A stretch of DNA of 64,000 nucleotides, from positions 1-64,000 of the forward strand of contig NKIB01012257.1 of NCBI GenBank assembly GCA_002256025.1. The letters are read 5' to 3'. The notes under the pieces were generated by a model. That model saw nothing but the letters and a program-made list of their open reading frames with translations, had not been told where the DNA came from and searched no databases. Below, in pieces: positions 7,474-50,264 of this stretch (its first letter is position 1; every line of letters begins with the position of its first letter). The stretch is from Asterionella formosa (Eukaryota). A program made the position numbers and the translations under genes.

Positions 7474-7699
7474 TATTGATCGAGGATAGGTCGTGAGAAA
7501 GGAAATGGTGATGGCACACACCCCATGGCCCAATGGTATCCTTGCTTGTGATCCACGATAGAATAATAACGGCAAAATTGAACTGACAAAAACGCTTATT
7601 TTTATGACCACAGCCATGTACTAATATCTAGCGAGTAGATGATGTGATAGAAGTTCTCCTTATGTACGACTTTTTCAATTGATCCCGTAGTTCTTGACA

Positions 7700-8740: not shown

Positions 8741-9608
8741 TCGATCAAAAAATATTGATCAAATGATCAACAGTATCATTGATATGAGAAAATGAACTAT
8801 CAAAATTATTTATGAAGTATGGCTTGAGTCGGTCCTACAAGCGAGGTGCTACTACTCGTGTGAGGAATCAAGGAGTAGACTGGTGACGGAGGAAAGAAGC
8901 AAGTGCAAACAAGGGAGGAAATCCTCTTATCTTGCTTGATGATGGATTGTTAGTCAAACCAATGTAAAAAGTAGTTTGCCTTTAATTTTGACTCTTCTAA
9001 CCATGTATACTCACATACAAGCAGAGACCACTTCGGGTTTGTCTTGCCTTCAGCATATACACTCATGTGCTGCCAAGCTAAGAAGGTTGGAAGAAAGGTG
9101 CTTGAAACTTCTGGGGAGCTCGAAAGAATTGGGATTCCTGCTGACCAACCAGAATCAGGCGCTGATGAGTCAGAATGATTGAAAGATTCATCTCTCATGC
9201 CAAAGAATCAAAATAGGGCTTCAAGGACTGACTACAAATGTTAACTGCTATTAAAACAGATATAATCTGTAGCACGACTTAAATAAAGGGTTGGAATACC
9301 GGTACCTGGTGCCGGTAGTGAATTTCGTGTGGGTCAGCCAATCTACCATACGTAGTCGTACGAATGTACGACCATTCTCCCTACCGGTACCAGGTACTAT
9401 AGTCCCTGTAAGCTAGATACGGCTGCTGAGTTCTGCAACAAGCCGAAGACGGCGTGATACAAACGTTCTCGTCCTTCGTTTTCTCACCTGCTTCCATCGT
9501 CCTGCATTTTTCATTCATGATGCATACCGGTAGTACTCAGATAAAAGTTATTAATTCTATTAAAATTCGTCGAGAAAAACTGGAACCTATAAATCGCATC
9601 ATCAAATT

Positions 9609-11159
9609 ATGGGGAACAAGGTGTCCATGTCCATAGCTCTTGATCACGAAACGCGAAATGTTAGAGCTGGCAACCCCCTGACCGGAAAAGTAGTTGTCGA
9701 GGTCGTCCGGGGGAACGTTCAAGGCCACGAAGTCCGGCTTGATGTTGTTGGAAGGGAAAAAATCAGTATGGGGCGTGCTCAGCAAGATGAACATGAGATA
9801 GTTCGTATATCCACAGTCCTGTCTGATCTTCGAGGCCATCGCCTAGCACGTGGGAAGTTTGAATATCCCTTCTCGCTGGAGTTGCCTGAATTCTTACCGT
9901 CAAGCATGACATCTTCAATTGCAGGAGACGGCCTAGATAGGCATGGATGTAAGGTTGTTTACGATGTCGCATCTACTTTGGGAGGACTTTTCTGTGACAA
10001 GGTTTTCATTGTTCAAGCGGCTCCGTCGCCAATTTCGGGTATTCCATTTCTTGTTGAACCCAAGACACAGATCATCAAGGCTGCTGGTGTCTTAGAAAAA
10101 GGATCCGTTACGTTTGGTGCTTATGTATATGATTCCTACGTTGGTAAGGGCGAAGGGCTAAAGATGGCGATCGCTGCAATCAATAACAGTACGGTAGAAT
10201 TGAGAGTGGAACTCAAGGTGGTGGAGCGCATTGAATGGAAAGGCTCTACCGAGAAATCTACGAACCATATTAAGAATACTTTGGTTATCAAGAATAATGT
10301 TTCCCTGCCGGGTCTACGCACTGAAAAGTGCACAAGGAAGCAGGTCTTACATGAAGGCACGGTGAAGGATCGCAGCAATAGAAATGCTGATGCAATCTTA
10401 TCCAGCTTGCAAACGGGAGAAAGTGTCATCACTCTTACGATCCCAAAGGTGGCCCGTGACACATACCTGGGTGAAAGGATGAGCGTCTCTCATTACGTCA
10501 AAATTAAACTAATGACCAAGACGAGATTGGTGGAAAATGTCGATACAAAGATTCCAATATTCATCTGTACACCGCGCAACGAAGTCCCAACCGTTGCTCA
10601 AGCTCGTCTGGTGCCTACCATTCCTCATTTTCAAAGCGAGGAATGCCCTATTGCAACACCGATTGCAACTCCTATTCCGATTCCACCCGGTGTGGATAGC
10701 CCACCTAGTGGAGCATCAAGTGTAAACAATGGCTCCCTCCAAAGGCGTGACATAGAGGACGTCGGTGTCCTTCCACCTCCCACCGCTCCCACACTATCGA
10801 ATCTTTTGGCGGAACTTTCGAATACGTCAAATGCCTATGATGTTATTTCCAAAAATTTGAACTATCCGGCATGGCAGCATGCCTTGTTTTCATACCTTTC
10901 CCCTTCTGACTTTGGTTCCATTCTGAACCATGTCAGTTCTGATGGGCCGCGCATTGCCTCGTTGATGGCCGCCAATGTAATGAACTTTACATGTGAACAT
11001 ACTGTACAAGGTCTTCGAAACACTGGTTCTGCCTACCGACTTTTGCTCCTGGAATATGTACTTCCCTTTTGCTCTGACTTGCCAACTAACGATTACATGA
11101 TTCGAGAAGAACTTACAGATTGGGAGTGGTCTGAAGCAATGGCTCAATTTGGTGCGTGA
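9609..11159 (+). CDS. Arrestin/Vps26-fold N-terminal domain protein, 516 aa
   Basis: Arrestin_N-type signature AGNPLTGKVVV…LARGKFEYPFSLELPEFLPSSM…CKVVYDV. Pro-rich linker, helical C-terminus and an MGNKVS N-terminus. Confidence 0.8.
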   Translation: MGNKVSMSIALDHETRNVRAGNPLTGKVVVEVVRGNVQGHEVRLDVVGREKISMGRAQQDEHEIVRISTVLSDLRGHRLARGKFEYPFSLELPEFLPSSMTSSIAGDGLDRHGCKVVYDVASTLGGLFCDKVFIVQAAPSPISGIPFLVEPKTQIIKAAGVLEKGSVTFGAYVYDSYVGKGEGLKMAIAAINNSTVELRVELKVVERIEWKGSTEKSTNHIKNTLVIKNNVSLPGLRTEKCTRKQVLHEGTVKDRSNRNADAILSSLQTGESVITLTIPKVARDTYLGERMSVSHYVKIKLMTKTRLVENVDTKIPIFICTPRNEVPTVAQARLVPTIPHFQSEECPIATPIATPIPIPPGVDSPPSGASSVNNGSLQRRDIEDVGVLPPPTAPTLSNLLAELSNTSNAYDVISKNLNYPAWQHALFSYLSPSDFGSILNHVSSDGPRIASLMAANVMNFTCEHTVQGLRNTGSAYRLLLLEYVLPFCSDLPTNDYMIREELTDWEWSEAMAQFGA

Positions 11160-11336: not shown

Positions 11337-12368
11337 TCAATCAAAATCAGTATGTTCCATATGCAAGTTTGGCCACTTACTTCCATTTGGCGGAAAGTCC
11401 TTTTCCAGGGAGGAATGTTCTGGATCCCGCAATGTAAAATACAACAATACCCGACGAGTGGACTCCGATATATTTGGTCCACCGCAATGCAATGTTCTCG
11501 AGTCCATGATTGCAACTTCACCCTTTCGCAAGGATGCTTTGCGGTAGTCACACGACATGGAGAAGGCTTCGTCCAAGTTGTTGTGCTTGTCGTGAGAATC
11601 TTGCGTATTGGTCAATGGCAGGAACCATGTCGGTCCCATGTCTTCATTCACATCTTGAAGGGCAACAAAGCAAGAATAGAGGACTGCCTTTGGTGTAAAC
11701 TTGGAGTCGGGATGAATTGGCTGACGAAAGGAACCAGGGTCTGAGATGAGTGCTGAAAACTCGTGAAAGACCGCCGGGATGCCTGAAAACAGTTCTGTAA
11801 ATAGACTCTCCAGGGCAGATCCATGGCACAACATTTCATGCAAGGCGTCATTGAAGACTCCGTCGTTTTGGAGGTACATATCATATCGACAAGCTCGAGA
11901 GTGCACCTTTCCAAATCCGTTGCAGTCATACATGGCAGTTTCCTCGTTGTGGTCGGCGACAAGAAGTTCTGCGTTGATTCGTTTCAAGCATTCATCGCAT
12001 AGGTCTGAGGAAAGGACAGATTCGAGTCTTACAATTCCATCCGAGATTAAAATGGCAGCAGGCGTTCCTCTTGTTTGGTCCTTTGCCGTATACTCCAGTT
12101 CCTCCAGTACTTGGTTGTCGATTCTCTTTTCGCGGGCAGCGCTCACTGCTTCTTTCTGTTCTTCAAGCCTTCGGAACGTTTCGGCAATGACGTTATTGTT
12201 CTTTGCAGTAATGATGGGAGGCGCATCGTCCTCGGGCTCGTCTGTGAGGAGCATATCTTTCCCGTGCATAAACTGAAGAAGAGCAGCCAATGTGTCGCCC
12301 GAGAGGTCATCATGAATGTTCACGTTGTCTTCGCCGGAAGCGGAATCGTCTTCATGATCAGCTATCAT
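11337..12368 (-). CDS. PhyH-family Fe(II)/2-oxoglutarate dioxygenase
   Basis: RQPIHPD (HxD), FVALQDV..DMGPTWFLP, MDSRTLHCGGPN…RRVLLYFT. Confidence 0.88.
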   Translation of the reverse strand: MIADHEDDSASGEDNVNIHDDLSGDTLAALLQFMHGKDMLLTDEPEDDAPPIITAKNNNVIAETFRRLEEQKEAVSAAREKRIDNQVLEELEYTAKDQTRGTPAAILISDGIVRLESVLSSDLCDECLKRINAELLVADHNEETAMYDCNGFGKVHSRACRYDMYLQNDGVFNDALHEMLCHGSALESLFTELFSGIPAVFHEFSALISDPGSFRQPIHPDSKFTPKAVLYSCFVALQDVNEDMGPTWFLPLTNTQDSHDKHNNLDEAFSMSCDYRKASLRKGEVAIMDSRTLHCGGPNISESTRRVLLYFTLRDPEHSSLEKDFPPNGSKWPNLHMEHTDFD

Positions 12369-13872
12369 TTTGTGGAGGTGTGTCAGGAGGCAGAAAATAA
12401 AAATACCAAATTCCTCTTGCTTTTATTGTTCCTGCACTCAATGTCTTATAATACCAGTGGTATCGGTATAATTATAAAATAATGACTGCAATTACGAAAA
12501 GGAGCTGAATTACTCCTTCGCCCCCACCCCTGCTTTGCTGCTTCGATGATGAAAGCTGATCATGGCAACACCACCAGCCATCATCGTGACTACCGGTAGA
12601 CTGTAATCTACTTGAACTTCATCGTAGGTACTGTACAACCAACGTACGGACTTGACTCCCATGTGGTTGTTGTTCTGCTCCGTTCGATATCTTTACATAC
12701 ATTCGTGACAATCTGTCTTTTACTGTACATTGCTACGTGCACACACAACCATCAAACACTGCATGATAATAAACACAATGCTGTTGAATGGCTGATGTAT
12801 TAAGTGCCTTTACCGGCAAATACCGGTACGTTAGAATTCATTTGTTTGCTCTTAAATCATTTTTGTGCAACGAAAATGTGTTGATGTAAACAACTGCAAA
12901 CTACATATAAATGAATACCTGATTGGTATCTACGGTACCTGGTACCTTGGAATTCCTACACTTTGCATGCATGCATACCCTCGGCTCGTAGTTGTCATTG
13001 ATCATATCATACGACATCTATCATGTGGTTTTCGTCGTCGTCATTCCTCTGTGGGTGAATATACAAAATAAGGTCTGTTTGAGGTTGGTTTTTGTATAAT
13101 CATCACATTTACCTATTATATGTATTTTCCACATTAATAACATGGTATAAAGAGTGCGAAATACACCTCAAGGCCCTGTATGTATGTGATTCAGACGGAG
13201 TAGTAGATGCAGTACCAGTAGAGTTGTGTTGAACAAACGTATAACAGAATTGCTATTTTATAACTAACATGATCACTGAATAAAAAATAAAGAAAAATGA
13301 GCCATTAAGGTATATTAAATGTCATGTATTAAGTGCCTTATTGTTCATCTCTTGTGATGGTCTCCATCCTCACTTTTGTTTGGTTTCCAAGATATTCAAT
13401 AATCATCATGTCCTCTTGCATTGGCTTTGTTAAGAATGTCCTATGCAATGGTATTTTTATTCCATCCAAAGGTATGTGTGAGCTGTCCATGATGACATTT
13501 TCATCATTTACACTTCAGTACCCTTGATACCTTGTTTTCATTGTACAGCTTTTGTCGTAGCAAAATAAGAGAATGTAGGTGTTCAAGAATCCAATTCATA
13601 TTGGTGTCCCTCATGAAGTACTGTCAATTGACTTCATGATAGAGTGCATGAGAAAATGTTGATTGAGTTAATCGTTGAATTTTTTACAATAATGTTGTAT
13701 TGATGTCTTTGACCAGTGTTGGAAGGCCAATTATATGAGATTCATTCACTCAACCACAGAGCATTCCTAGAGATTTCTAGGACCCATGCCATTGAAAATG
13801 GAGCCACTCGTCCTCTTTTTTATTTTTGAACAGGAGACGAGACAGTCAAATGACTTGAATCTGTATCCTTAC

Positions 13873-17096: not shown

Positions 17097-17886
17097 ATGA
17101 TGACACCCACAAGGATCTCTCGCTTCTTAATTATTGCGGCCTTACCTTTAGTGGTCGCATTTACAATTCCTGCTATTTCTTCCACACCTAGTCGATTGCA
17201 TTCTTCAAATAATGATTTGTTGACACCAGACTACGAAATTGAAAAGTTGCCTTTTCGTATTGGCCATGGGTTTGACATTCATCGGATGGCTCCAATTCAG
17301 GATGCTGGTCAACCTATTGTGATTGGTGGTGTTGTCATTGATCATTTGGATCAAAAGGTGTGTGGATATTTGGGTGGTTTGTGCTTTCGTGACTACCAAT
17401 ATTTTTATTTTCTAGCTGAACCCCTATTTTTGTTGTCGCCAGTGGACTGATGCCGATGGAAAGTACGTGGACAAGGGAGACATTTATGAAACACAACTAG
17501 GCGTCGTGGCTCATTCTGACGGTGATGTCATTTATCACTCTGTAGTGGATGCCATTTTTGGAGCATTAACACTTCCTGATATTGGTCAAGTTTTTCAAGA
17601 CACTGACCCTCGGTGGAGGGGGTGTGATTCTTCCAAATTTATGGAACATGCTTATAACATTATGAAGAGCTACGGTTATAAGATTGGAAACGTGGATGTT
17701 ACTTTGATTCTCGAGCGTCCTAAAGTGGCGTCTTTCAAACCAAGAATGAAGGAAAATATTGTGCGATTGCTGGATACGACCCCAGGACGAGTCAATATCA
17801 AAGCGCGAACACATGAACGACTGGACAGTATCGGTGAACTGCGGTCACTGAGTTGTCATGTGGTACTAACGCTGGAATTAGCGTAG
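17097..17886 (+). CDS. ispF: 2-C-methyl-D-erythritol 2,4-cyclodiphosphate synthase (MEP pathway), plastid-targeted; exons 17097-17357 and 17443-17886
   Basis: RIGHGFDIH, AHSDGDV..HSVVDAIFGA…DIGQVF, GNVDVTLILERPK, VNIKART. Phase-0 intron GTGTGT…CCAG. VVA-FT presequence. Confidence 0.96.
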
Positions 17887-22817: not shown

Positions 22818-24448
22818 GCAACTTGTTGCATCAAATTCCGGCCCTTACTAGTCTAATTACCGTAGGGATACATATTATATATTACTACTGTGTTGCCACC
22901 ATTTGCTTTTTCTTTCAGATCTTGAACAGTATGTTACTATAATTCACACAATTTTGACTTCATTGTGTTCTTTTCTTGTCATATTTGGAGTCGTTGCCAG
23001 CAAGAGATTACACATGTCATTTGCTAAGGCCCTTGCTTACCAGTTGGAAATTCGTATTCAGAAACTTTACCAAATTTTTAGATTTCTACGAAATCCGATG
23101 CCAAAAAGGACATTCCTTACCGCACCGGACTTCCATTTTGGGAATAGTCAGAAGTTTTTTGGACAGCCGTTCCTTGCCATCCGGAATTTCCATCAGATCG
23201 GTAGTAAAATGATGATGATAAACATTGTGTTTGCTTGGTACTGGTGCCTCAACGTTCCATTAATTTATCAGTTGACAGAGATGATGCACTGTCAGCCAAC
23301 AAATAACCTTCTGCATCATTTCTTTCTATTCCTGATTTGAGTTCTTCAAGGAAATCAAAATTTGCTGCAGCAAGCAACAATCATATGAATCTTTTACCTT
23401 ACAATCAAAATTTTGTAGGGGACCCGAAATATTTTCCTGAAAACTGTACCAATAAGCCATTTATCTGGTTTCCATATGCTACCTGTGGATGTTTTGTTGA
23501 TGCAGTCATCAACCTTGATAGAAAAATGAGCTCTTTGCCACTGTTTCAGGACCAAACTGATGCCTTGCTTGTTTGCATGAAACATTATTCAGCACTGGCT
23601 GATATCTTTTCTTCATCATCTGAGCTAGTATCCTCAGCAATCAAGTCCAACACTTGATTGATTATGATATTGTAGAGAGTATCTTGCCAAGGATCAAATC
23701 ATCATTGTTTCCAAATGTGATTTTAAGTTTCCGAAGAAAATCATCTGCATCCCGAAAATCGATGATATTTCTGACATTACTGAAAATATTTTGAGTTTCA
23801 GAAATTCAAAACCCAGCAAATTCATGTTTCCAATGTGATAAGGAATGATTTTTGGTAAAACGTCACAGGAAATTTGAGTCACGAGTTAGTTTCCATAGCA
23901 TTAAATAAGCATTGGCCTACCGTACCTGGGCGGACCAGCAACTTGAATGAATCATTGGGCGGATATGTAATAAGGTATCAGTACCGTGTACGTGGTACAG
24001 TACCTAGGCACCTGATACCACTCCGAGTACAAGCAAGCAGCATCCATGCTGGTGCCCCTTATAGTGCACGTGCCAAGCTCCTGACACATCGTTCATATAA
24101 AGGGTATTGGGTACACCAGGCAGCACAGTATGTCTTACTATCGTACCCCGGGGATGATATGTACAACTGCGGTTGGTTCTTCTTTGCGTACTGGTATGTG
24201 TGATCGATGTGCATTGATTTACGTACAACCGCTATTGCGTTTCGAGGGTTGCCATGTAATTATGCATATGCACCGGGTATGATAGTCATACCTGTTTATA
24301 TATTTCATGTAGACTATGCACTGCATGTGAATAACTGGACAGTACATAGGTAAATACCACGGATTATAAATAAAGGGAAAATGACAAAGAATGATGTCCT
24401 ACTGACAAAAGGAGACATAAAACGATAAAATAAAATGATGTATACCAG

Positions 24449-24536
24449 CAAGTTGCGGTAATTTTGCTGAAGCTAAAGATTTAGCTATCTTTATCCTAGA
24501 TTAAAATGGAAGTTTGAGCAAAATGACCGCAACCTG
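24449..24536. mobile_element. 88-bp micro-MITE-like element with 20-bp terminal inverted repeats
   Basis: CAAGTTGCGGTAATTTTGCT … AGCAAAATGACCGCAACCTG (18/20 complementary). A related copy lies at 55503-55538. Confidence 0.6.
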
Positions 24537-24714
24537 TAGTATATATGTTATGTATACATTAAATGTACTACCTGTACCCGTGCTGGTACGAGCGCTCTAT
24601 AAAACTAGAAAACCATCAAGCATCGAAATATTTGGGGCTCTGATTTGTGCCGTCGATACCGGTACTTCCACTGTCATTCACCATCCAATAAAATATCTTT
24701 TTCCACAAGCAAGA

Positions 24715-27700
24715 ATGAGCGGCCCTTTGACTCACGATGAAATTTTGTCTGCCGCCATTGCAGGACTGTCGAAGGAAGAGCTTTGCGACCGCAAGAATGA
24801 GATCGAACAGCGATTGCAAGAGATACAGATTGTGGAGCCTAGCAAAAAAAGGCCTCGAACGACTGCGGATTGTGCGTCTATTGACGTTGTTGCCAATATT
24901 GTGCCCATCCTTGCCAAAGCAGACACGCATTGGGATTTTTGCATGAAGGAAATGATGTGGCTGGCTGCAGATTTTTTGTCGGAGCGGAAGCGGCAGTTGA
25001 CCATGGCCAAAAAGCTGGCCACCGGCGTGAGTGGCTTTCACGCCACCAAGGAGTCACGACGCGTGCGAGCGTTGGCGGAAGCCGAGCTGCAACGACGAAG
25101 ACTGGCAGGGAAAATTGGGCGAGAGGTACGAACTTGGTGGACCAAGATTGAGCGGGTGATCGCGTACAAGCAAAAGCTCGAGGCAGATAGCGAACGACGG
25201 AGAGCAATGAATCAGCAACTGGTAGATTTGGTTAAGCAAACAGAACGGTATGGACGGTCCTTGTCAGCGGTTCAAGAATCAGATGACGATGCTCATATTT
25301 TGACTATAGAAGAAGCCTTGGCCGGGAGTAATGTTCGGCGAGTGCAGCAGCCAACTGATTATGCGCGTCTTGCTATCGCGGCTGACGATTACGAAATTTA
25401 TGGGGAATCAACAGAAGATTCTGGATCAGATGGTTCTTTTGTTCTAGGAAGCGAACCTGATGATGACGATGAAACGACTCTGCGTGAAGCTGAAGAGCTG
25501 GAGACACAGGAACGGCGTCGTGGGTTACGTCACTGCGATGGTGACGATGACAGGTCATATATGGCCGATCCCGATGAAATCGAAAGGCTACAAGAGGAAT
25601 CAATTATGGACATCAATCTAGTATTGGAACGAATGAGAGAAGAAGCATCGAAAATACCGGAGGCGGAGGAAGCCGATACAGCTGACCTCATTACAGATGC
25701 TAGTGACGAGAAGCAACCGAAACAAGTGACTTTTGCTTTAGATTCCAAGCCAGAAGGCGATTCATCGCAACCAGCCGTGAAACCAGACCCTGGAAACGAT
25801 GCGGACGATGATGGTGACGCTAGTGATGTCGAAGACTTTAGAGATGATACCTCAGATGGTTCCGAAGAGTTCGTTGGCAATCTCGACGCTGTCGATGATG
25901 AAACAACTATCGAAGCAGAAGAGCGGCTTGGTCGAGAAATGTCGGTCACTGACGAAATCAGTATGTTGCAGCGAGAAGGAGAAATGTCTGTTGATGAGCT
26001 ACGGAAGCTTTATGCCATTCCAGATGATGCTGAGAGGTCTGAAAAGGAGGACAACTCGGGCGATGATGAATCATCGGAAAACTTGTCGAGGAAGGGTTCT
26101 GTCAAACAATATGAAACTCTATTCAGTGCAGATGACAATGAAGACCAAGATGAATTCCAGCCAGATTCGATGGAAGTTGATGATGAAACCACGCTAGAGG
26201 CCGAAGAAGGCCTGGGTCGCGAAATGAGTTATGACGAAGAAATCAATTTGCTCCAGAAGGAAGGCGAAATTCCTGTGGAACAACTTAGAGCAATGTATGC
26301 ATCAATGGCTAATGGAGGTAACAATAGTGATGATAACTTTTACGATGATGAAGGGGATGACGACCAAATAAATTCTACTGAGTCAGAAACCAACGACGAT
26401 AACATAAACATCCTCTTAGATAGTGGAATCAATGATGACTCCGCTGCCGACGAGTTCCGACCGGAAGATGAAGTGGACGACGAGACCACTATGGAAGCAG
26501 AAGAACGGCTGGGAAGAGATATGAGCTACGAAGAGGAGTTAGCGCTTCTCAAGCGTGAGAGTGAAATGTCTGTGGAGGAGCTACGCCAAGTCTACCAAGG
26601 AATAGCCGAAGAGAGTATAGGCGACGAGGAGAATCCAGAAGTATTTTCCGACCATTCTAGTGCTAACGGCAACGATGACGGCTCCGAAGAGTTTGTTGAT
26701 GATGAGAATTTGGTTGACGATGAGACAACGATGGAAGCTGAAGAGCAGTTGGGTCGAGAAATCAGCATCGACGATGAAATTCGTATATTAGAACATGAAG
26801 GCGAAATGCCAATCGAAAAGCTTCGTGCTATTTATGGGCACGAGAATAATACAATCAATGATGGTGGGAAGGAGATTGATCGTCGAACTGGAAGTAAACG
26901 GAAAATTTTCGCCCTACCGAACCAGAATACGACTCAATCAATGAGCGAGGATGAAGGATTGGTGGCATTACAAACCCTAAATGAGATGGAAGAGAAATTA
27001 CGAAAAACCCTTGCTACTCGGCCCTTTCTCATGTCGTCATGGGTACATATGCGGGAATACCAACAAATTGGGCTAAATTGGCTAGTTTCCATCCAGAGTC
27101 GCCGTCTCAACGGTATATTGGCTGACGAAATGGTAAGGTTACTTCAATGTCATTCCACCTCGTGCAGAAATGAATCTCAATTTAGTTTTTTCTCTGTATT
27201 TAGGGTTTAGGAAAGACGTTGCAAACCATTGCTCTGCTTGCATATCTTGCGGCCTACAAGGGAATTTGGGGTCCACATCTTGTGATTGTTCCGACTTCTT
27301 GTATAGTCAATTGGGAGACAGAGTTGAAGCGTTTCTGTCCCGCAATGAAGGTCCTGTGTTACTACGGTTCAGCCAAGAGAAGGAAAGAGCTTCGCACTGG
27401 GTGGACAAAATCCAACTGGCATCACGTGGTGATCACATCATATCAATTAGTTGTGCAAGATGCCTTCGCTTTCAAGAGAAAAAAATGGTATTACATGATC
27501 CTTGACGAAGCTCAAAACATAAAGAATTTTCAAAGTCAGAGATGGCAGACTCTGATTAATTTTAATACACAGCGACGGCTACTATTGACAGGAACCCCTT
27601 TGCAGAACAATCTAATGGAACTCTGGTCTCTACTTCATTTCTTGATGCCTCATGTCTTTCGATCTCGAAAAGAGTTCTCTTACTGGTTTTCCAACCCGAT

Positions 27701-30700
27701 GAATAATATCATTGAAGGAAATACGCGCAGGAGCAATGATTTGATTAGTCGGCTTCACGGTATCATTCGCCCATTTGTACTCCGAAGGCTAAAAAAGGAT
27801 GTAGAAAGTCAAATGCCTGGAAAGTATGAACACATTATTAAGGTCCAAATGTCAAGGCGCCAGATGTTCCTCTACGAGGAGTTCATGGCTAGGTCGTCAA
27901 CCAGAACAGCCCTAAAGAAGGGCGGAAATTTTATGGGAATGATGAATGTTCTTATGCAACTTAGAAAAGTGTGCAACCACCCAGACCTCTTTGAACCTCG
28001 TTCGGTGGTCACTCCTTTTGCCATGGAAATGATTGAATACGAAGTACCTAGTTTGGCTGTACATGTCACAACAGCAACGAATGGCTCGACCATTAGTGAT
28101 CACCTGCGACTTGCGCTTTGGAGTAAAGGCATGGGCGTACCGTCTCCTGAAAGGTCATTGAGTTACGATATTGTGGAATGCGAACAGTTGCAGAGACTCT
28201 CTATTGATGAAATCACGTTCGTTGCAGACGATAAGGATGTAGTCATGGATGAACCGAAGGCAGAGTCAGGAATGAGCTCAGAATTAACTGAGCTGTTAAC
28301 ATTGATCCGACGAAATGAACACGAGAACAGATTGGCAACACGACAATTCCAGAGTGTTGTCCATTCCCGAAGATGTTCAATGTCTGCGTTTCCTTTCTCG
28401 TTACGACTTCTAGAGCTGGTTCAGCTTGATGTGCCTCCACTTGATAGGCCCGAAGCTGAGGCTATACAGAAGCGAAGAATAATTTCGACGCCATCTGAAT
28501 TGTTAGCAATAAGGCGTACGCATCTTGATCGAGCAGAGGACCTAGATGAACTTCTCAAAAAGTTTGTAATTTGCATCCCTAGGGCCGGAGCATCCAAGAT
28601 GAGAATGAACATCTCATTACATGATCGAAAAACTGAATCGTTTGAAAAAAGTTTCAGTGAAATGCTCATGAAACCATTGGAGGAATATTTCTTCCCTTTT
28701 AGACGAGCACAAGCCCGACTTTCGTCGTTCTTTCCTGACAAAAAGCTTATTCAATTTGATGCTGGGAAGCTCCAGAAACTCTCGGTCCTCCTGCGAGACC
28801 TTAAGCATGGTGGACATCGTGCTCTAATCTTCACGCAAATGAGTAAAATGTTGGATACCCTTGAAGCGTTTTTGAATTTAAATGGCCATACCTATCTACG
28901 ACTCGATGGGAGTACAGGAGTCGACCGAAGGCAAAGGCTAATGGACAAATTCAATAATGATGAGAAAATATTTTGTTTTATTTTGAGTACACGAAGTGGT
29001 GGCCTCGGAATTAATTTAACTGGGGCTGATACTGTCATCTTCTATGATAGCGATTGGAACCCAGCTATGGATGCACAGGCACAGGATCGTGCCCATCGAA
29101 TTGGTCAGACCAGAGATGTGCACATTTACCGGCTTATTACTGAACACTCTATCGAGGAAAATATTTGGACAAAAGCAAAACAAAAACGAAATTTAGATCT
29201 TATTGTTATGGACGAAGGAAAATTTGACGTTGGGCACGTCAAAGCAGGCGATGAAGACCGCAATTCAGAGAATGGCCCAGTCCAAGATATCTATACCAAG
29301 GGTGGGCTCCGAGAAATCCTAGGAATCGAGACCGACGGATACACCCCCAATTCGAATGTGGATGTGATTGAGGCTGACCAAAACATGACAAAAGATCAAT
29401 TGGAACGAGCAATGGCTTCACTGGAAGATGAGGAAGATGCTGTGGCTATGAAGGGAGCTCAAAAAGAAGCCGAGGAAGAACTCCAAGAGTTTGATGAAAA
29501 TGTTGAGTATAAGCAAGAGACTGAATGTGATTGCGATAATATAGACGACAAACAGGAAGCTAGCAACGACACGAAACAATCGGAAGATCGTGCGGCATCA
29601 GGAAAAGAGGACGAAAACGCCACCAAAAAGGTTACAGACGATGAAATGGTCAAAGAGTTTGAGGCCTGGCAGAGTAATATCGGCATGGATGCGACCGCTA
29701 TAGAATCGTCCCTGGGACCAACGGAACGCTATGGACTCGGTTTTCGAGAATCAATCGACCCGTTTTGGTCTATATTTGCTGTCATGGAGTATAAGCGCAA
29801 GATGGAGGCCATGGAATGCGAAGAAGAAGAGATTGATGTTGATGAATTGGAACGAGTCAAAGCCAAAGAAGAACAAGCAGCAATTGATGACGGGGATTTG
29901 CTTGGCACTCATCCTCCCCCAGATGCTTTGCCTCGTCAACGCAAGATCTACTTTCGAGAACGAGCTCGCTTGAGATCTGACAGGAAACGTCGCAAGTTGA
30001 CTGGAGAGAGCTGGATCACGAGAATCGATGCAATTTCTCAAGTGCACTATTGGTACAATGAAGATACTGGCGAAGCCATCTGGGAGAAACCAAAGATTCT
30101 GGTCGAGCTGGATGAAGTCGCGAGTGCTCAAGTCAAGAAGTGGAATGCAATGCTAATCAAACCGTTGGTGCATATAATGGAGTACCTGATTCCTTACCCC
30201 GATAGAACGAAGTGCTCTTTGGTCTGCAAACAATGGAAACTTGCTGCGAAGGACTTCGGGTTCGTTCTACACGTATTCCCTGTTGAAATGGGTGCCCTTT
30301 CTCTAGAGGGAAGAAAACTTGAACATAATCACTTTCGTACAATCTCTGAAGTTATGCAGGTTGTTCAGCCTGGAGATACAATTGGTAAGTTTAACCCTCG
30401 GACCTTGCAATTCATCCAGTTCGTTTTTCTCAAAAACTGTCGGTTCCAGAACTTGGGGATGGTCACTACTGGATAAATGAACCTGGACTCACTGTCAACT
30501 TCCCACTTCGCATTGTGGGTGATGAGAATGACCCTTCGCATGTTGTGATCGAGTTGAGTGGATCAATTCGCTGGCAAGCCAAACGCGGCTGGATCGAGGG
30601 AGTAACTTTCCGACGACCCCGAATTTCGAAGGAAGGCGCCCGAATCCCCGAAATTCTAAGCGTGGAAGGAGGAGGACGACTTGATATTTTCAACTCTATC

Positions 30701-31189
30701 CTAAATAACGAAGGTAGCCTAGCGAGCCCGGCTATTGTACGCGGACTCGACTCAAAGGCGAGATGGACCAGCGTGAAACTCAGAGGTGCAATGGCTAGTC
30801 CTGGGTTGAGAGTGGAAGACAAGGGTGAGGTAGAGCTCGAAGATTGTACTGTGAGTGATAATGGCGGTCCTGGGGTTGTTTGTCATGGCAGCTCTCGGCT
30901 GCGAATGATGAACTGTAGGGTTGAGCGCAACACAGGCTTTGGAATTCGTTTGGGCGGAAATAGTCGCTGCGAGCTTTCCAAGTGTCGTTTCGCAGATAAC
31001 GCTGGTGGTCTCATTGACAAAGAAATCGGGTCTACTTGCTCACCATGTAACGGAAACATTTTGTTTGTTTCATCCCACAAGCATATTCCAAAGCTCGTGC
31101 CCGGTTTCCGGCTGATCAGGGAGCTCGTCGACCATCAAACACCTGAGGCAGACATGGTCCCATCGCTAATCAAGTCTGGTAAGGGATGA
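24715..31189 (+). CDS. SWR1: SWR1/PIE1/SRCAP-type Snf2 ATPase (H2A.Z exchange) with C-terminal WW, F-box and beta-helix domains; exons 24715-27132, 27204-30384 and 30450-31189, ~2112 aa
   Basis: HSA region THWDFCMKEMMWLAADF. LNGILADEM|GLGKT is restored by intron 1. ILDEAQNIKN, QLRKVCNHPDLF, split-ATPase insertion, FPDKKLIQFDAGKLQ, DSDWNPAMDAQAQDRAHRIGQ. Intron 2 (GTAAGT…CCAG) joins the last ORF in frame. Confidence 0.93.
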
Positions 31190-31348
31190 ACACACTATTA
31201 TATTAGCTAAGAATACATTAAAATAGACCATATAGAAGCACATTTGATTGCAACTAGAAAACCTCAATAATTATTCAAAATACTGCTCAATGCATTTGAA
31301 AAGAAGTATCGTTCCTCGAGTTGAGTACCCTGGTATGCAAAACCATTT

Positions 31349-32515
31349 TCATTGTAACAGGGATGAATCATCGTCGTCTTCCAATTCAGATTCTTCTTCG
31401 TCAGAGGATTGCGGGACAGAGAAGAATTCTCCAAGCGCTATCTTTCGACATGACACTACTGCACACGTTCCGTCTTCCAGTTCCACTACTTCACAGTTTG
31501 GTACCAATGAACGGTGCAGGGAGCATTCTGGCATTTCATCTTCTCTAAAAATTACAGTTCCGACTTCAATTTCTGTCGCCGCATAGACACCATCAACATT
31601 GCACATTGGTTCTTGATCCTCAAGATCATTCGAAGCAAAATAAAAGTCCCTTGCATATGATACACTTGGCACATCTTGCTGAGGAATTTCGGTCTGATGC
31701 CACCACAGCCTTGTGTTGATGATCAAGACGTCCCCTTCCTGGCATTGCACTGTCACAGACCCTGTAGTTGTATTCCAATCCACGTTCTTTTCCAAGAACT
31801 CCTTTCTCAGCTCCTCTGTTGGACGCAAGAACCAACGTTTTGATCCCGAAAGCTGATAGTGCCAGGTGCCATCGTGCGACACCGCATCCGTGTGTTCGGG
31901 GCGTCCATCAAGTGCGGTCTCGCCCTGATTTCGACCAAAAAAGAACCACACAGCAGGCCCATATGTCCACGATAAATCTGGAAGCTCCTCTATGGGCAGC
32001 TTACTAAGAGTTTCTTCCTTCTGCTGGTGCAAGAGAAAGCTGCAATACCCCCGAGTGTTGTTTGATGGATCCAGAAAGTCGTTCGGAGCACCCGAAGACG
32101 ACCCTTGCTCAACACACCAGGTTTCCTTGTCTTCGTCACTCATGTTTTTAAAAATTGACTGAAGTGCTTTCCAACTGAGATGTGGACCTTTCCTGACAGG
32201 AAAATTGGATAAATGGACGGCTTTGTATTCATCATAAATGTTCAACAGCGAATCGGCATCGTCGGGCAAGCCCTGAAAATTGAAGGAGGGAATGGAAGAA
32301 TGATGCTTCACACCATTATCTAGCTTCAACCTTTTCCTGTTTCCACCAATGCTTGAAGCATCACGCTCGCCAGATGAAGGTAATAGCTGCTTTTCAGCCA
32401 TTGCTTTCTCCATGGTGTTGGATTCATTGGTACCAGTACTGGCCAAATTTGAAGAAATTACTAGTCCGTTCTCCGGGTTGTTTTCATGTTGGGAAGGGAC
32501 AACAAGGAACAGCAT
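31349..32515 (-). CDS. JmjC/cupin-like oxygenase with degenerate SET-like C-terminus (start may be 32413)
   Basis: RPEHTD (HxD), TWHYQLSGSKRWFL, QEGDVLIINTRLWWHQT. Tail reads GVYAATEIEVG…LHRSLVPNC…RKIALGEFFSV. Confidence 0.8.
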   Translation of the reverse strand: MLFLVVPSQHENNPENGLVISSNLASTGTNESNTMEKAMAEKQLLPSSGERDASSIGGNRKRLKLDNGVKHHSSIPSFNFQGLPDDADSLLNIYDEYKAVHLSNFPVRKGPHLSWKALQSIFKNMSDEDKETWCVEQGSSSGAPNDFLDPSNNTRGYCSFLLHQQKEETLSKLPIEELPDLSWTYGPAVWFFFGRNQGETALDGRPEHTDAVSHDGTWHYQLSGSKRWFLRPTEELRKEFLEKNVDWNTTTGSVTVQCQEGDVLIINTRLWWHQTEIPQQDVPSVSYARDFYFASNDLEDQEPMCNVDGVYAATEIEVGTVIFREDEMPECSLHRSLVPNCEVVELEDGTCAVVSCRKIALGEFFSVPQSSDEEESELEDDDDSSLLQ

Positions 32516-34179
32516 CGGCCGGCCACTCAAATATTTGCGGGAAAGCAAATAAAGCACTAGGATAATTTCTATGTAACTTTAATCGAATTCATTCCATATA
32601 CTTTCTCATGGTAAGGTTACCAGTATTACATTTACATTGGTCATACTGTCAGATATTTAATGGTTCAAATCATTAAAATGAGCATACCATTGTTTTATTC
32701 TTCCTTCCCATCATCACGACTTTCATCCTTGCACAATCCATAATCAAAGGCAAGGTGCTGCTGTTCTACAGTTACTGTATAATGCATTGTCCTGACCACC
32801 CCCCTCCCCCCAATGTACACTCTTGTGACTGAATTCGACTGATTTTACTTGAGGGAGGCCAGGAAAATGAAGAGATTTCCTATATAGTAGACCTACGTAA
32901 ATTTTATCAGTTCTACAGGATTCAAAAATGAAAAATTGAGGGCATTTAAGGCTTTGTTGCTGGCACTTTTCTTGATATGATCTTGTTTATTATTTCATTT
33001 TTATGTATTGCCTTTTTTCATTGCAAACACTCAAACAAGTAATCTAGCTTGTTCATCAGAAACCAAAATATTTCATGACAGTTCTGATTAAAAAAGGCAA
33101 GAACCAAGACTATTCATGTGTGCGATGCCTTCTTGCCATTACCTCAGGGTTGTGCATTTTGATCAGACAATAAATCATAAGCAAGGTAGAGTAGCTTGAA
33201 GTTCTTGTTTTTGTTGTCTGCCTGGCAGTAGCTAAGGCAGTATATGAAAAAAGGATCTAGTTAGAGACATGTTTGCCAATGCTCCCTCTGCTGTTCCAGC
33301 ATTAGAGATGGATGAATTCCCAATTGTCAATTTAGTGATGAAATATGATGATGGGACTATTAGGAAGAGAGGGTTCCAACTCATGATCTTGAGATTATCA
33401 ATCAGGTTCTCTAGTACTGCGTTCATGAGTTCATGGAGGCACCTGGCCCTCCATGGGCATACTTGCTTGCTTAGCTTTGGAATGGATCTCACCAGCAGAT
33501 GAGGAAGTGGCAGAAGCTAGCTAACAGGACAGGGGACACCTTTTGTACGACTTTTAGGACCTTGATGGCACCAATTCTTGTGGATGAGACAATGGAAGAA
33601 AGCATCTCACCAGGATGGATTACTTTCATGTAGTGACTGTTACTACTATTCTACTAGGTCAACGTCAGTGATAGATTTTTGTAGATGGCCTGTGTGCAGA
33701 TTCTTTCTTGGTCTGCTTGTATACCAATGACTTGTTAGCTACTCATAGAAGCAAAGTGGCAAGCCCCAGCTGCAATTACAGAAGAGAAATGAAAGATGAT
33801 GTTCTGCAATATGACCAGAACATCAACCTTCACCTTCAACCATGGCGCTTTCTACCAATGCTGCTCCTTCTGATAGTATTCCTATGGCTGAAACGGTCTC
33901 CTTCACTCCTATTCATCTCCCACACAGGAGGAGGACAATAAAATTTTATAGTAGCCTGGAGAGACACGGGGGAAATCGATAAGTCTTAAGGGGGCCAATA
34001 TTGCACCCAAGGATGACGTTTCTTCCACAATTCACATTGTGGGCGTACTTTTGTAGTACAACTTTGGTGAGGATTGATCTGTGTTACATTTGGCGATGCG
34101 CAAATTCTTTCCAACATCACTGCATCAGTTGGATTGTTTGATATATTGTGAACAATGCAATTTCTGCTGTCTTGTGGTG

Positions 34180-48677: not shown

Positions 48678-50264
48678 TCACTCGGTCATTCCAAGGTCCT
48701 CAATGATTGCTCGGGCCAATTTCTCCCACTCGACCTGCACATCCTCAAGTATAAGGCCTTTAGTGAATGTGTAAACTGTGGGGGGTATCTCTTCCTTGGC
48801 CAAGAGGTCACGCCCACGAGCTGGAAAATCTTTCGCCTCATAGTTTCGCCAACCTTCTTCGCCGAGGGCAACGGTCATCGATTCCCTGAATTTGCAAGGC
48901 GATGCTGTGGCTAGTACAGCAACAGGTCTACCATTGGAATTGATTGGAAAGTATCCCAAGTCTTCGGCAGCTGCCAACGCCACGGCTGTGTGAGGGTCAG
49001 CGATGTATCCAAATTCAGCAGCTACTTTCTTCAACGTTGCACACATCTTGTCATCTGGCACTCTTGCACTTCGGAACTCGGCCTGTAGCTTTGTTAGCCA
49101 CTTGATATTTAGATCTAGTTTTGCGGTTTTGTCAACACATGTCATCCACTCATTCACCAGGACATGATTAGAGTCCGTCAAGTAAAACAGGAGTCGTTCA
49201 AAATTGTACGGCAATTGGATATTGATAGCGTCCGAAAGAGTATGCAACATTTGTTGAGATTTGTGATACTTCCCAGTCTGAAAAGCGCGAAAGACAATAT
49301 CGTTCACGTTTACACCAGCGCACAAAGTTCCTAGCGGTAATCCACACTTTTTGGCAATATAGCCGCCAGCAATGTTTCCCATCGCTCCAGTTGGCAATAC
49401 AATGTCAAGAATGTTCTCTTTGCATGGCTCCTTCCCAAGTTGTTGCATAACTCGTAAATACGTCCACACAAAATGTACGGCTTGCATGAGAGGGCGTCCA
49501 ACATTGTAACTGTTGACTCCGCATATTCGGTGATCGCGGCGTCCATTTTGAGTTGTGCAAATATTCTTGATTGGCTTGTCCATATCGTCTCCGCCACCTT
49601 CAAAGGCCACTACATGAACACACTTACTTTTGACCGTAGTAAGTTGCCGCCTTTGAAATTCACTGATCTGACCCTTGGGATAGTGTACCAATATTGTGAG
49701 GAGAGGATTTCCAAGATCAGAGACCGCTTGCACTGCAGCAGGACCAGTGTCGCCGGTTGTAGAAACGAGGAGAGTGGTCGGGATCTTTCGCAGAGTGCTA
49801 AAGTGTGAAAGCATACCGACTACTGCTCGCATACCAAGGTCTTTGAAACGGCAACCGGCTTGGGGTTAGGAAGAAGAAAATCCCCTGTCGTGTTCTGGCG
49901 AGCAGTTGTTAACCGTACCTTTGAAACAAAATGTAGGACCATGAAAAAGTTCCGCGACATAGACACTGCCAAGTTGGACAATCGGAACAGCGTGATCTCT
50001 GTCTTCGAAACCCTCAAAAGTGGATGCGCAAATCCCAGCAAGAGCAGGATCCGAGAGTTCCTCAGTAGAGATGAAGAGGCGAAGAACGGCAGCAGAGAGT
50101 TCGGGGTATGTTAGGTAAGACCATTCCTTCAGTGCTACTTCGTCGACTACGGGAAGCTTCTCCGGCACAAACAACCCTCCATCCGGAGCATATCCCAAAC
50201 TGAGGGCCTCTTCAAACCTGAAGGAGCGAGATCTTTCACGCGTTGAGGTGTATCTATTCGACAT
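48678..50264 (-). CDS. thrC: Threonine synthase (fungal/proteobacterial long type); exons 50264-49919 and 49840-48678, ~502 aa
   Basis: YTSTR, APDGGLFVP, ELFHGPTFCFK|DLG (PLP lysine), TTGDTGPAA, NSYNVGR, LPTGAMGN, PYNFERLL, DPHTAVA, ATASPCKF. Confidence 0.95.

What the first reader, a model, noticed from the sequence alone, without database searches (positions are those of the whole stretch)
29990..31189. SWR1 H2A.Z remodeller fused to WW + F-box + right-handed beta-helix
Seen: in the same ORF as the ATPase, a WW domain (W…HYWYNEDTGEAIWEKP, ~30003-30092) is followed by an F-box-like motif (WNAM..KPLVHIMEYL.P..DR.KCSLVCKQWK.AAKD, ~30141-30254). After a 65-nt intron comes a pectin-lyase-like beta-helix (FRTISE…QPGDTIELGDGHY…DCTVSDNGGPGV…NCRVERNTGFGI). 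Known: yeast Swr1 has no such tail, animal SRCAP ends in AT-hooks and plant PIE1 in SANT. F-box plus beta-helix is the FBXO10/FBXO11 architecture of SCF substrate receptors. Inference: one polypeptide may couple histone-variant exchange to SCF ubiquitylation, with WW reading proline or phospho motifs. I do not know whether this is already described in stramenopiles.
Basis: partly seen in the sequence, partly recalled or inferred. Interest (0 to 1): 0.78.

Follow-up and report, generated by a model that had tools for sequence, protein, structure and literature searches.

The report
SWR1 remodeller with built-in F-box tail
A chromatin-remodelling motor of the kind that loads histone H2A.Z carries, in this alga and across diatoms, a relative of the brown algae and a water mould, a tail built like the target-choosing part of a ubiquitin ligase, which suggests the two activities are coupled.

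Summary
A three-exon gene (24715-31189, + strand; 2112 aa) encodes HSA, a split SRCAP/Swr1-type ATPase, then WW, an F-box and a right-handed beta-helix (Pfam). The 65-nt intron at 30385-30449 is real. One 6403-nt poly(A) RNA contig runs from the ATG to the 3' end with both introns removed.

The tail is not a local oddity. The same collinear architecture occurs in centric and pennate diatoms (Skeletonema, Thalassiosira, Fragilaria, Nitzschia), in Chrysoparadoxa and in the oomycete Pythium brassicae. It is therefore old and conserved in stramenopiles.

Public records call these proteins "helicase", "hypothetical" or "p400". Seven literature searches aimed at the fusion found no description of it.

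A homologue's whole tail folds with high confidence (pLDDT 88). Its beta-helix matches solved beta-helices at Z 23.

The functional reading, Skp1/SCF docking, stays inferred. The complex predictor was unavailable. This window's copy has Leu where 172 of 187 relatives keep the F-box Pro.

Verdict: a real, expressed, conserved new variant of SWR1. Its mechanism is plausible but untested.

The parts
24715..31189 (+). Whole gene: 3 exons, 2112-aa SWR1/SRCAP-type protein with a WW-F-box-beta-helix tail
   Evidence: ORFs. Spliced CDS of 6339 nt. RNA contig X2 record 11 spans 24715-31245 with both introns removed. Collinear with Fragilaria crotonensis KAI2509861.1 (2011 aa) over its full length.
24715..27132 (+). 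Exon 1: N-terminus, HSA domain (about 24919-25107), acidic region, start of the SNF2 domain (27058-27132)
   Evidence: Pfam HSA 2.7e-13 at residues 69-131; SNF2-rel profile positions 1-26 at residues 782-806. HSA aligns to SRCAP residues 131-248.
25894..26841 (+). Four tandem copies of a roughly 42-aa motif (VDDETT.EAEE.LGR.[MI]S...E.E[MI].[VI]E.LR..Y); a fifth, degenerate copy starts at 25465
   Evidence: Regex positions. The copies align to two such motifs in human SRCAP and one in p400. No DNA-level tandem repeat was found.
27133..27203 (+). Intron 1 (71 nt, GT..AG), which splits ...ILADEM | GLGKT...
   Evidence: Sequence. Skipped in RNA contigs of X1, X2 and X8.
27204..29105 (+). Split ATPase: SNF2 lobe (27204-27989), roughly 260-aa insertion, Helicase_C (28767-29105)
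   Evidence: Pfam SNF2-rel 9.4e-77 at residues 1-262; Helicase_C 1.2e-26 at residues 522-634. Best solved relatives are SRCAP (677.7 bits) and Swr1 (631 bits).
29106..30005 (+). Post-helicase conserved and acidic linker, ending in a basic RKRRKLTGE patch; open frame throughout
   Evidence: Translation. Aligned to Swr1 up to query residue 776. Conserved in relatives.
30006..30092 (+). WW domain (SW..(x)..YWYNEDTGEAIWEKP)
   Evidence: Pfam WW 3.7e-5, 24.1 bits, below the cut-off of 26.9. Family profile against PRPF40A WW, 5.6e-7. AF2 of the window's own piece gives a three-stranded sheet at pLDDT 93-96.
30141..30263 (+). F-box (WNAMLIKPLVHIMEYLIPYPDRTKCSLVCKQWKLAAKD...). The canonical (L/M)-P is M-L in this copy.
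   Evidence: Pfam F-box-like 28.7 bits against a cut-off of 24.3; F-box 20.2 bits (cut-off 20.5); F-box_5 20.8 bits. Family profile against the Skp2 F-box, E 0.005. Column counts: Pro in 172 of 187 sequences, Leu in 3 including this one.
30324..30384 (+). N-terminal cap of the beta-helix (HNHFRTISEVMQVVQPGDTI), end of exon 2
   Evidence: Family profile matches the caps of PL6 alginate lyases, 5e-6. Helix 191-197 plus the first strands in the homologue model.
30385..30449 (+). Intron 2 (65 nt, GT..AG)
   Evidence: Sequence. Skipped in RNA contigs of X1 and X2, retained in X7. The protein junction matches Fragilaria residues 1787/1789.
30450..31189 (+). Exon 3: right-handed parallel beta-helix (to about 31066), short C-terminal tail, stop at 31187-31189
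   Evidence: Pfam Beta_helix 4e-13, 49.7 bits against 25.9; NosD 1.3e-5. Homologue model matches solved beta-helices: VIA Z 23.3, rmsd 2.5 A over 239 residues to 8ja4; Foldseek E 5e-4 to 2pyg.

Best explanation
This is the stramenopile orthologue of the Swr1/SRCAP ATPase, the catalytic subunit of the complex that exchanges H2A for H2A.Z. Its C-terminus has been an F-box substrate-receptor-like module since before diatoms, other ochrophytes and oomycetes diverged. The module is a basic patch, a WW domain, a connecting helix, a three-helix F-box and a single beta-helix of about 200 aa.

Shown:
- one spliced, polyadenylated mRNA;
- the domain identities;
- the confident fold of a homologue's tail;
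- deep conservation.

Inferred: the F-box docks Skp1, and through it most likely Cul1-Rbx1. The WW and the beta-helix then select a partner. The WW would bind proline-rich or phospho-Ser/Thr-Pro motifs. The beta-helix would work as the CASH repeats of FBXO11 do. On this reading an SCF-type ubiquitin ligase activity sits on the remodeller at the nucleosomes it works on. It would act on a chromatin-bound substrate, or on the remodeller itself through F-box-dependent turnover.

The confidence given (0.55) is for the inferred Skp1/SCF mechanism. For the shown part (real, expressed, conserved architecture) my confidence is about 0.97.
For: One gene, one transcript:
- The open frame is continuous from Helicase_C to the F-box.
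- X2 contig record 11 covers 24715-31245 with both introns removed. X1 record 6 (28651-31700) has no mismatches and lacks the 65-nt intron.

SWR1 identity: HSA, a split ATPase, and SRCAP 677.7 and Swr1 631 bits against INO80 445.

Tail domains:
- F-box-like and Beta_helix are above the Pfam cut-offs in the window protein.
- Of the 37 members of alignment A1, 32 match F-box-like, 28 Beta_helix and 21 WW at E<=0.001.
- Of 20 tail-bearing relatives scanned, all 20 match F-box-like at E<=0.001 and 14 are above the cut-off, many over profile positions 1-45 of 47.
- The family profile hits the Skp2, FBXO42 and FBXL3 F-boxes and the PRPF40A, TCERG1 and Pin1 WW domains in the PDB.
- AF2 of the whole tail of homologue P0008: pLDDT 88.3, pTM 0.75, with the F-box helices at 129-159. 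The beta-helix scores Z 23.3.

Conservation:
- 105 relatives of the 162-aa WW+F-box piece at 47-99% identity. By my count of that table, 49 carry SNF2 and/or Helicase_C on the same polypeptide.
- Full architecture in Fragilaria (2011 aa), Chrysoparadoxa (partial, 1305 aa) and Pythium brassicae (2084 aa: WW at 1414-1440, F-box-like 28.6 bits, Beta_helix 37.7 bits).
- F-box core positions are nearly invariant: L9 in 181, M13 in 178, P20 in 186, R22 in 185, C29 in 179 and W32 in 184 of 187 sequences.

Precedent for the module's role: in FBXO11 the F-box binds SKP1 and the CASH repeats recognise substrates (review passages).
Against: Skp1 binding was not tested, and no cullin, Rbx1 or substrate evidence exists.

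In this window's copy the hallmark F-box Pro is Leu. It is one of 3 of 187 sequences with Leu, and the RNA contig X1 agrees with the genome. Correspondingly, Pfam matches only profile positions 9-37 of 47.

Folded alone, the window's 162-aa piece gives a confident WW but a weak F-box region (pLDDT 53-64, whole-piece pTM 0.43). That piece is cut off from its beta-helix.

The WW is below Pfam's gathering score.

The beta-helix is one short domain with no UBR finger, unlike FBXO11. Its nearest solved folds are polysaccharide enzymes and phage tailspikes, which says nothing about protein substrates.

F-boxes are also used outside SCF ligases (recalled: Ctf13, Rcy1, KDM2B in PRC1.1).
Confidence: 0.55

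Rival explanations
1. The F-box binds Skp1 but not as part of a cullin ligase. Skp1 would be a structural or regulatory subunit of the stramenopile SWR1 complex, and the WW and beta-helix would be assembly or targeting surfaces.
For: The sequence evidence for an F-box is the same as above. The F-box is more strongly conserved than a generic one, and it packs into a single well-defined tail model (pTM 0.75), which fits a fixed structural role. Non-SCF uses of F-box and Skp1 are known (recalled: Ctf13-Skp1 in CBF3, Rcy1, KDM2B-SKP1 in PRC1.1).
Against: Nothing here separates this from the SCF reading. F-box followed by beta-helix is known from true SCF receptors.
Confidence: 0.17
2. The tail does not bind Skp1. 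The F-box-like helices are only a scaffold between two reader domains. WW and beta-helix tether SWR1 to a proline-rich or phosphorylated partner such as the RNA polymerase II CTD, or to a modified chromatin protein, to direct H2A.Z deposition.
For: The WW profile is closest to PRPF40A, TCERG1, Pin1 and FBP11, a group recalled to bind proline-rich and phospho-CTD peptides. The window copy lacks the F-box Pro. The F-box region of the window's piece folds weakly on its own.
Against: 172 of 187 relatives, and the oomycete copy ('LLPSVLLAIL...VCRAWRRAA'), keep the canonical F-box signature. F-box-like scores are above the cut-off in 14 of 20 relatives scanned.
Confidence: 0.2
3. Artefact: two neighbouring genes, a SWR1 gene and a WW-F-box-beta-helix gene, merged by the reader or by assembly.
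For: In one search, 56 of the 105 listed relatives carry no precomputed SNF2 or Helicase_C domain. They include an NCBI model for Nitzschia inconspicua of 617 aa.
Against: There is no stop between Helicase_C and the WW over about 300 codons. A single RNA contig covers everything. The short entries I read start inside the SWR1 post-helicase or helicase region (P0272 'MDQGNF...', P0131 'MDAQAQDRAHRIGQ...') or, as I read it, at an exon edge (P0185); P0008 starts in the conserved pre-WW region. They are fragments or split models. Full-length 2011- to 2240-aa versions exist.
Confidence: 0.02

Closest known systems
Swr1 (yeast) / SRCAP (human) / PIE1 (plants): catalytic subunits of the H2A.Z-depositing SWR1-type complexes
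   Same: N-terminal HSA domain. ATPase split by a long insertion. Highest similarity among all solved SNF2 proteins (SRCAP 677.7 bits, Swr1 631 bits). The acidic DDETT-type motifs align with SRCAP's.
   Different: Yeast Swr1 ends about 29 residues after the shared region. SRCAP's AT-hooks and PIE1's SANT domain are recalled, not tested here. None of the three is known to carry WW, an F-box or a beta-helix. This protein adds about 370 aa of such a module and has 4 (+1) copies of the acidic motif, against 2 in SRCAP.
FBXO11 / FBXO10 (DRE-1): SCF substrate receptors with F-box plus CASH (right-handed beta-helix) repeats
   Same: Same order, F-box then beta-helix, and the same Pfam families (F-box-like, Beta_helix, NosD) (row 11). 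In FBXO11 the F-box binds SKP1 and the CASH repeats bind substrates.
   Different: FBXO11 stands alone (927 aa) and has three CASH domains and a UBR zinc finger. Here there is one helix of about 200 aa, no zinc-finger hit at E<=1, a WW in front, and fusion to a remodeller. I claim no orthology. The atlas score of 0.89 is only a lead.
Plant F-box protein SKIP5 and chlorophyte F-box plus beta-helix proteins
   Same: They are the nearest named clusters by language-model features (0.93). AtSKIP5 is described as a member of the SKP1-interacting F-box proteins of SCF ligases (search listing and start of abstract of PMC11906370).
   Different: This is a lead only. There was no alignment or E-value, no SNF2 part and no WW. 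I did not check whether SKIP5 has a beta-helix.
Rice TED1, a SWR1-like scaffold whose C-terminal extension promotes assembly of SCF(D3)-D14-D53
   Same: A lineage-specific C-terminal extension of a SWR1-type protein is functionally tied to an SCF ligase (abstract of PMC13556982).
   Different: The link is in trans: the F-box protein D3 is a separate polypeptide. No F-box is reported in TED1. I read only the abstract and the outline.
KDM2A / KDM2B (FBXL11 / FBXL10)
   Same: A chromatin enzyme and an F-box in one polypeptide (recalled, no call).
   Different: A JmjC demethylase with LRR, not an SNF2 motor with a beta-helix. KDM2B's F-box-SKP1 works as a structural part of PRC1.1 (recalled).

Membership tests
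Swr1/SRCAP subfamily of SNF2 ATPases | HSA domain N-terminal to the ATPase | tested here: met
   Pfam HSA 2.7e-13 at residues 69-131. It aligns to SRCAP residues 131-248.
Swr1/SRCAP subfamily of SNF2 ATPases | ATPase lobes split by a long insertion (INO80/SWR1 type) | tested here: met
   SNF2-rel ends at residue 262 and Helicase_C starts at residue 522 of the exon-2 translation, an insertion of about 260 aa.
Swr1/SRCAP subfamily of SNF2 ATPases | Closer to Swr1/SRCAP than to INO80, p400 or other SNF2 subfamilies | tested here: met
   SRCAP 677.7 and Swr1 631.2 bits, against INO80 about 445, p400 about 400, and ISWI or SNF2 at 365 or less. No tree was built.
Swr1/SRCAP subfamily of SNF2 ATPases | H2A to H2A.Z exchange activity; the only such gene in the genome | not testable with these tools
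   No genome is held for this window.
F-box proteins (Skp1-binding, SCF substrate receptors) | Match to F-box profiles above the curated threshold | tested here: met
   F-box-like 28.7 bits against 24.3. 32 of 37 alignment members match at E<=0.001. 14 of 20 scanned relatives are above the cut-off.
F-box proteins (Skp1-binding, SCF substrate receptors) | Conserved (L/M)-P at the start of helix 1 (common, not obligatory) | tested here: inconclusive
   Pro in 172 of 187 family sequences. This window's copy has Leu, one of 3 that do. The oomycete copy has L-L-P.
F-box proteins (Skp1-binding, SCF substrate receptors) | Three-helix F-box fold | tested here: inconclusive
   In the homologue's whole-tail model, helices 129-137, 141-149 and 153-159 lie in 10-residue blocks with mean pLDDT 77-89. 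The window's own truncated piece gives only pLDDT 53-64 there.
F-box proteins (Skp1-binding, SCF substrate receptors) | Binds Skp1 | not testable with these tools
Stand-in Skp1 sequences had been prepared.
FBXO11/FBXO10 family | F-box followed by right-handed beta-helix (CASH/PbH1) repeats | tested here: met
   Domain order and Pfam families. Fold at Z 23.3.
FBXO11/FBXO10 family | Three CASH domains and a C-terminal UBR-type zinc finger (as described for FBXO11) | tested here: not met
   A single helix of about 200 aa. Pfam lists only Beta_helix and NosD for exon 3 at E<=1. It works like an FBXO11-type module but is not filed as a member.
WW domain | Two signature Trp, an aromatic cluster, C-terminal Pro; three-stranded sheet | tested here: met
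   W...YWYNEDTGEAIWEKP. Pfam 24.1 bits is below the cut-off of 26.9, but the family profile hits PRPF40A WW at 5.6e-7. AF2 strands 39-43, 50-54 and 60-61 lie in a region of pLDDT 93-96.
Right-handed parallel beta-helix (pectin-lyase-like fold) | Profile match and fold | tested here: met
   PF13229 at 49.7 bits against 25.9. VIA Z 23.3, rmsd 2.5 A over 239 aligned residues to 8ja4; Z 22.1 to 2pyg. Foldseek E 5e-4.

The most novel reading that the evidence does not exclude
In stramenopiles the SWR1 complex is itself an SCF-type ubiquitin ligase. The catalytic ATPase doubles as the F-box receptor, so H2A.Z exchange and ubiquitylation happen on the same nucleosome in one machine. The substrate could be evicted H2A-H2B, H2A.Z, or a WW-bound factor such as phosphorylated RNA polymerase II.
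Probability: 0.3. Interest if true: 0.85.

Novelty: new variant of a known kind. Interest (0 to 1): 0.62.

Why it matters
SWR1 and SCF are two of the best-studied eukaryotic machines, and they are not known to be joined in one polypeptide. A fusion kept across diatoms, another ochrophyte class and oomycetes is a strong hint of the Rosetta-stone kind that histone-variant exchange and ubiquitin signalling, or Skp1-dependent assembly, are functionally coupled.

It makes that coupling directly testable in tractable organisms such as Phaeodactylum, Thalassiosira and Phytophthora. The tests are ordinary ones: tail or F-box deletions, Skp1 co-purification, and H2A.Z and ubiquitin ChIP.

It could also guide a search for the same link in trans in animals, plants and fungi. 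The rice TED1-SCF(D3) report (abstract) suggests such links exist.

It also corrects annotation. Public records split the gene or call it 'helicase', 'hypothetical' or 'p400'.

Tried and rejected
- **Whole-genome search.** No genome is held for this window. I could not ask whether a second, tail-less SWR1 gene exists.
- **Earlier findings of this scan.** Nothing by place, sequence or words.
- **Skp1 in the window.** 35 ORFs of 130 aa or more were scanned. None is Skp1 at E<=1e-4.
- **Sequence search of the tail against the PDB.** With one sequence, only weak WW and Skp2 hits came up. The family profile did better. No solved F-box plus beta-helix protein appeared in Foldseek or VIA, whose lists were filled by beta-helix enzymes. 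That says nothing about FBXO11, which may simply not be solved in that part.
- **Atlas search.** Only leads: SKIP5 at 0.93 and FBXO11 at 0.89. No structure search was possible.
- **DNA-level tandem repeats in exon 1.** None.
- **tRNA near 24443-24507.** None.
- **Strain variants in RNA contigs.** Of the 33 shown, 18 are synonymous and 15 are not across the gene; in exon 3 the split is 6 to 3. The list is too small and was cut, with 126 variants not shown, so I did not use it as evidence of selection.
- **Literature.** Eight searches in all. Seven were aimed at the fusion; one search looked for SKIP5. None returned a paper describing a SWR1/SRCAP-F-box fusion. The main text of the broad chromatin-evolution preprint 10.1101/2021.11.30.470311 has no occurrence of 'F-box'. 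Its supplementary architecture figures and tables were not readable and could list the architecture.
- **Artefact or two-gene reading.** Rejected; see the rival explanations.
Full report
**Observation**

Three long open frames lie on the + strand, at 24505-27210, 27204-30476 and 30395-31189. Their translations join through two short GT..AG introns:
- Intron 1 is 27133-27203 (71 nt). It splits the SNF2 motif ...ILADEM|GLGKT....
- Intron 2 is 30385-30449 (65 nt). It splits ...PGDTI-E-LGDGHYW....

Pfam on the exon translations gives, in order along the protein:
- HSA, 2.7e-13.
- SNF2-related, 9.4e-77.
- Helicase_C, 1.2e-26, about 260 aa after the SNF2 lobe.
- WW, E 3.7e-5; its 24.1 bits is under the cut-off of 26.9.
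- F-box-like, 28.7 bits, over the cut-off of 24.3.
- In exon 3, Beta_helix PF13229 (49.7 bits, over 25.9) and NosD (1.3e-5).

**Is it one gene and one transcript?**

The ATPase and the WW/F-box sit in the same uninterrupted 1090-codon frame.

Of 19 public runs listed, 17 hold at least part of 29000-31400, and 15 of those are on record as RNA. I laid four runs from four studies on 24300-31700:
- X2, a poly(A) metatranscriptome: one 6403-nt contig covers 24715-27131, 27203-30383 and 30449-31245. That is the whole CDS with both introns removed.
- X1, a poly(A) transcriptome: two contigs, 24719-28581 and 28651-31700. Both are spliced and match the window without a mismatch.
- X8: splices intron 1.
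- X7: its contigs run unspliced through both introns (27017-27407 and 30190-31242). As both introns are retained, I read this as pre-mRNA or DNA carried into that library rather than regulated retention, but that is an inference.

Contigs cannot prove a single molecule. Together with the open frame and the collinear full-length proteins described next, the two-gene reading is very unlikely.

**What the motor is**

Against all solved structures, the exon-2 protein is closest to human SRCAP (677.7 bits) and yeast Swr1 (631 bits). It is well separated from INO80 (about 445 bits) and p400 (about 400 bits). The HSA region aligns to SRCAP residues 131-248.

The alignment to yeast Swr1 reaches residue 1485 of 1514. 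The yeast protein therefore ends where this protein goes on for about 530 more residues.

**What the tail is**

I could not hand a spliced sequence to the tools, so I modelled the whole tail of a homologue that is recorded as one piece. This was P0008, an MMETSP transcript ORF of 436 aa. It is 62% identical to the window over the WW/F-box piece and 48% over exon 3. The model used a 37-row alignment.

AlphaFold2 gave pLDDT 88.3 and pTM 0.75. The model shows a WW sheet (strands 81-96), a long helix (108-126), three short helices (129-137, 141-149, 153-159) at the F-box, and a beta-helix from 203 to 408.

The beta-helix matches solved right-handed beta-helices strongly:
- VIA Z 23.3, rmsd 2.5 A over 239 residues, to the alginate epimerase/lyase 8ja4.
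- Z 22.1 to AlgE4 (2pyg).
- Foldseek E 5e-4.

A profile of 16 tails searched against PDB sequences finds:
- the WW domains of PRPF40A (5.6e-7), WBP4, TCERG1 and Pin1;
- the F-boxes of Skp2 (0.005), FBXO42 (0.014) and FBXL3 (0.06);
- the N-terminal caps of PL6 alginate lyases (5e-6).

The window's own 162-aa WW+F-box piece, folded alone, gives a confident WW (pLDDT 93-96). The F-box part is weak (53-64). That part is cut away from the helix it packs on.

**Conservation**

The 162-aa piece finds 105 longer proteins at 47-99% identity, nearly all over its full length. By my count of that table, 49 carry SNF2 and/or Helicase_C on the same polypeptide. Named sources include Skeletonema menzelii, S. 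marinoi and Thalassiosira.

Cluster look-ups and further searches add named records:

| Record | Organism | Length | Public name |
|---|---|---|---|
| KAI2509861.1 | Fragilaria crotonensis | 2011 aa | helicase |
| CAM9514029.1 | Chrysoparadoxa australica | 1305 aa (partial) | unnamed protein product |
| IV203_031284 | Nitzschia inconspicua | 617 aa | hypothetical protein; UniRef name 'WW domain-containing protein' |
| PybrP1_012802 | Pythium brassicae (oomycete) | 2084 aa | hypothetical protein |

Pfam on the oomycete protein shows HSA, SNF2, Helicase_C, WW (1414-1440), F-box-like (28.6 bits) and Beta_helix (37.7 bits) in the same order.

BLAST shows the window protein is collinear with the Fragilaria protein from residue 1 to the end. 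The exon 2/3 junction falls between Fragilaria residues 1787 and 1789.

The short database entries I read start inside the SWR1 helicase or post-helicase region, or (P0185, as I read it) at an exon edge. They are therefore fragments or split gene models, not stand-alone genes. Full-length forms of 2053-2240 aa also exist in metatranscriptome assemblies.

The hallmark Pro of the (L/M)-P motif is kept in 172. This window's copy has Leu there, one of only three that do. The X1 RNA contig agrees with the genome over that stretch.

The fusion thus predates the split of ochrophytes and oomycetes and has been kept since. How far it reaches beyond these groups, and whether a tail-less paralogue coexists, I could not test.

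**Mechanism**

Four things are shown: the architecture, its expression, the fold and the conservation. What follows is inferred.

F-box followed by beta-helix is the layout of FBXO11. There the F-box binds SKP1 and the CASH repeats recognise substrates (passages of a 2026 review). The atlas cluster for FBXO11 carries the same three Pfam families.

The simplest reading is that the stramenopile SWR1 ATPase docks Skp1 through its F-box, and probably Cul1-Rbx1 with it. WW and beta-helix would choose the partner. This would put ubiquitylation at the site of H2A.Z exchange, or subject the remodeller to F-box-type turnover. I put this at about 0.55.

There are two live rivals:
- Skp1 is bound as a structural subunit without a cullin (about 0.17).
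- There is no Skp1 at all, and WW and beta-helix act as readers or tethers (about 0.2).

The artefact reading is about 0.02.

I prepared a test of Skp1 docking. Stand-in Skp1 sequences came from metagenome contigs and were confirmed by Pfam at 1e-24 to 1e-28. The complex predictor was never available, so the central inference is untested.

**Comparison with known systems**

The motor is a member of the Swr1/SRCAP subfamily. The tail works like an FBXO11-type receptor module but is not an FBXO11 orthologue. It has one short helix, no UBR finger hit and an added WW.

A functional link between a SWR1-type protein's C-terminal extension and an SCF ligase has been reported in trans for rice TED1 (abstract only). 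KDM2A/B are a recalled precedent for a chromatin enzyme that carries an F-box.

**Novelty**

The proteins are in public databases under generic names. Seven full-text searches aimed at the fusion returned no description of a SWR1/SRCAP-F-box fusion. An eighth search looked for SKIP5. The main text of the broad chromatin-evolution preprint does not mention F-box.

I rate it a new variant of a known kind. It is a real and testable lead, with interest 0.62.

Noticed in passing
window 25894-26841 (a degenerate copy starts at 25465): Exon 1 holds four well-kept copies, plus one degenerate copy, of a roughly 42-aa acidic motif (VDDETT.EAEE.LGR.MS...E.EM.VEELR..Y). They align with two copies in human SRCAP and one in p400. 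From memory, this region of Swr1/SRCAP binds the H2A.Z-H2B dimer. If so, the stramenopile protein has multiplied it. Fragilaria has at least three copies.
   Followed up: partly
window 30153-30155: This organism's F-box has Leu (CTA) where 172 of 187 relatives have the hallmark Pro. The RNA contig agrees with the genome. It could weaken Skp1 docking in this lineage, or it could be neutral.
   Followed up: partly
window 24443-24507: A stretch of about 60 nt upstream of the gene lies in very deep RNA contigs (depth up to about 3400 in X2) that run on into unrelated sequence on one side. It looks like a repeated or shared element. It is not a tRNA.
   Followed up: partly
window 27017-27407 and 30190-31242: Run X7 holds contigs of a strain about 2% different that retain both introns. 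Retaining intron 2 would end the frame after ...PGDTIGKF...TTG and remove the beta-helix.
   Followed up: no
P0272 (Nitzschia inconspicua IV203_031284) and P0259 (Fragilaria crotonensis KAI2509861.1): The public gene models look imperfect. The Nitzschia entry starts at an internal Met in the post-helicase region of SWR1. The Fragilaria entry lacks the ADEMGLG of ATPase motif I at the position of intron 1.
   Followed up: partly
window 31349-32578 (- strand): A convergent 409-codon ORF with no Pfam match at E<=1e-4. It is transcribed: X2 record 12 lies on the - strand. The X1 contig runs from the SWR1 gene straight into it, so the 3' ends abut or overlap.
   Followed up: no
window 1189-6754, 6796-7620, 9564-11156, 11340-12422, 17416-17883, 48681-50291, 62085-63998: The neighbouring ORFs are ordinary eukaryotic genes: Nup98-96 (FG repeats, GLEBS, autopeptidase, Nup96), a SET-domain protein, an arrestin-like protein, a PhyH dioxygenase, IspF (YgbB), threonine synthase and a PPR protein.
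   Followed up: no
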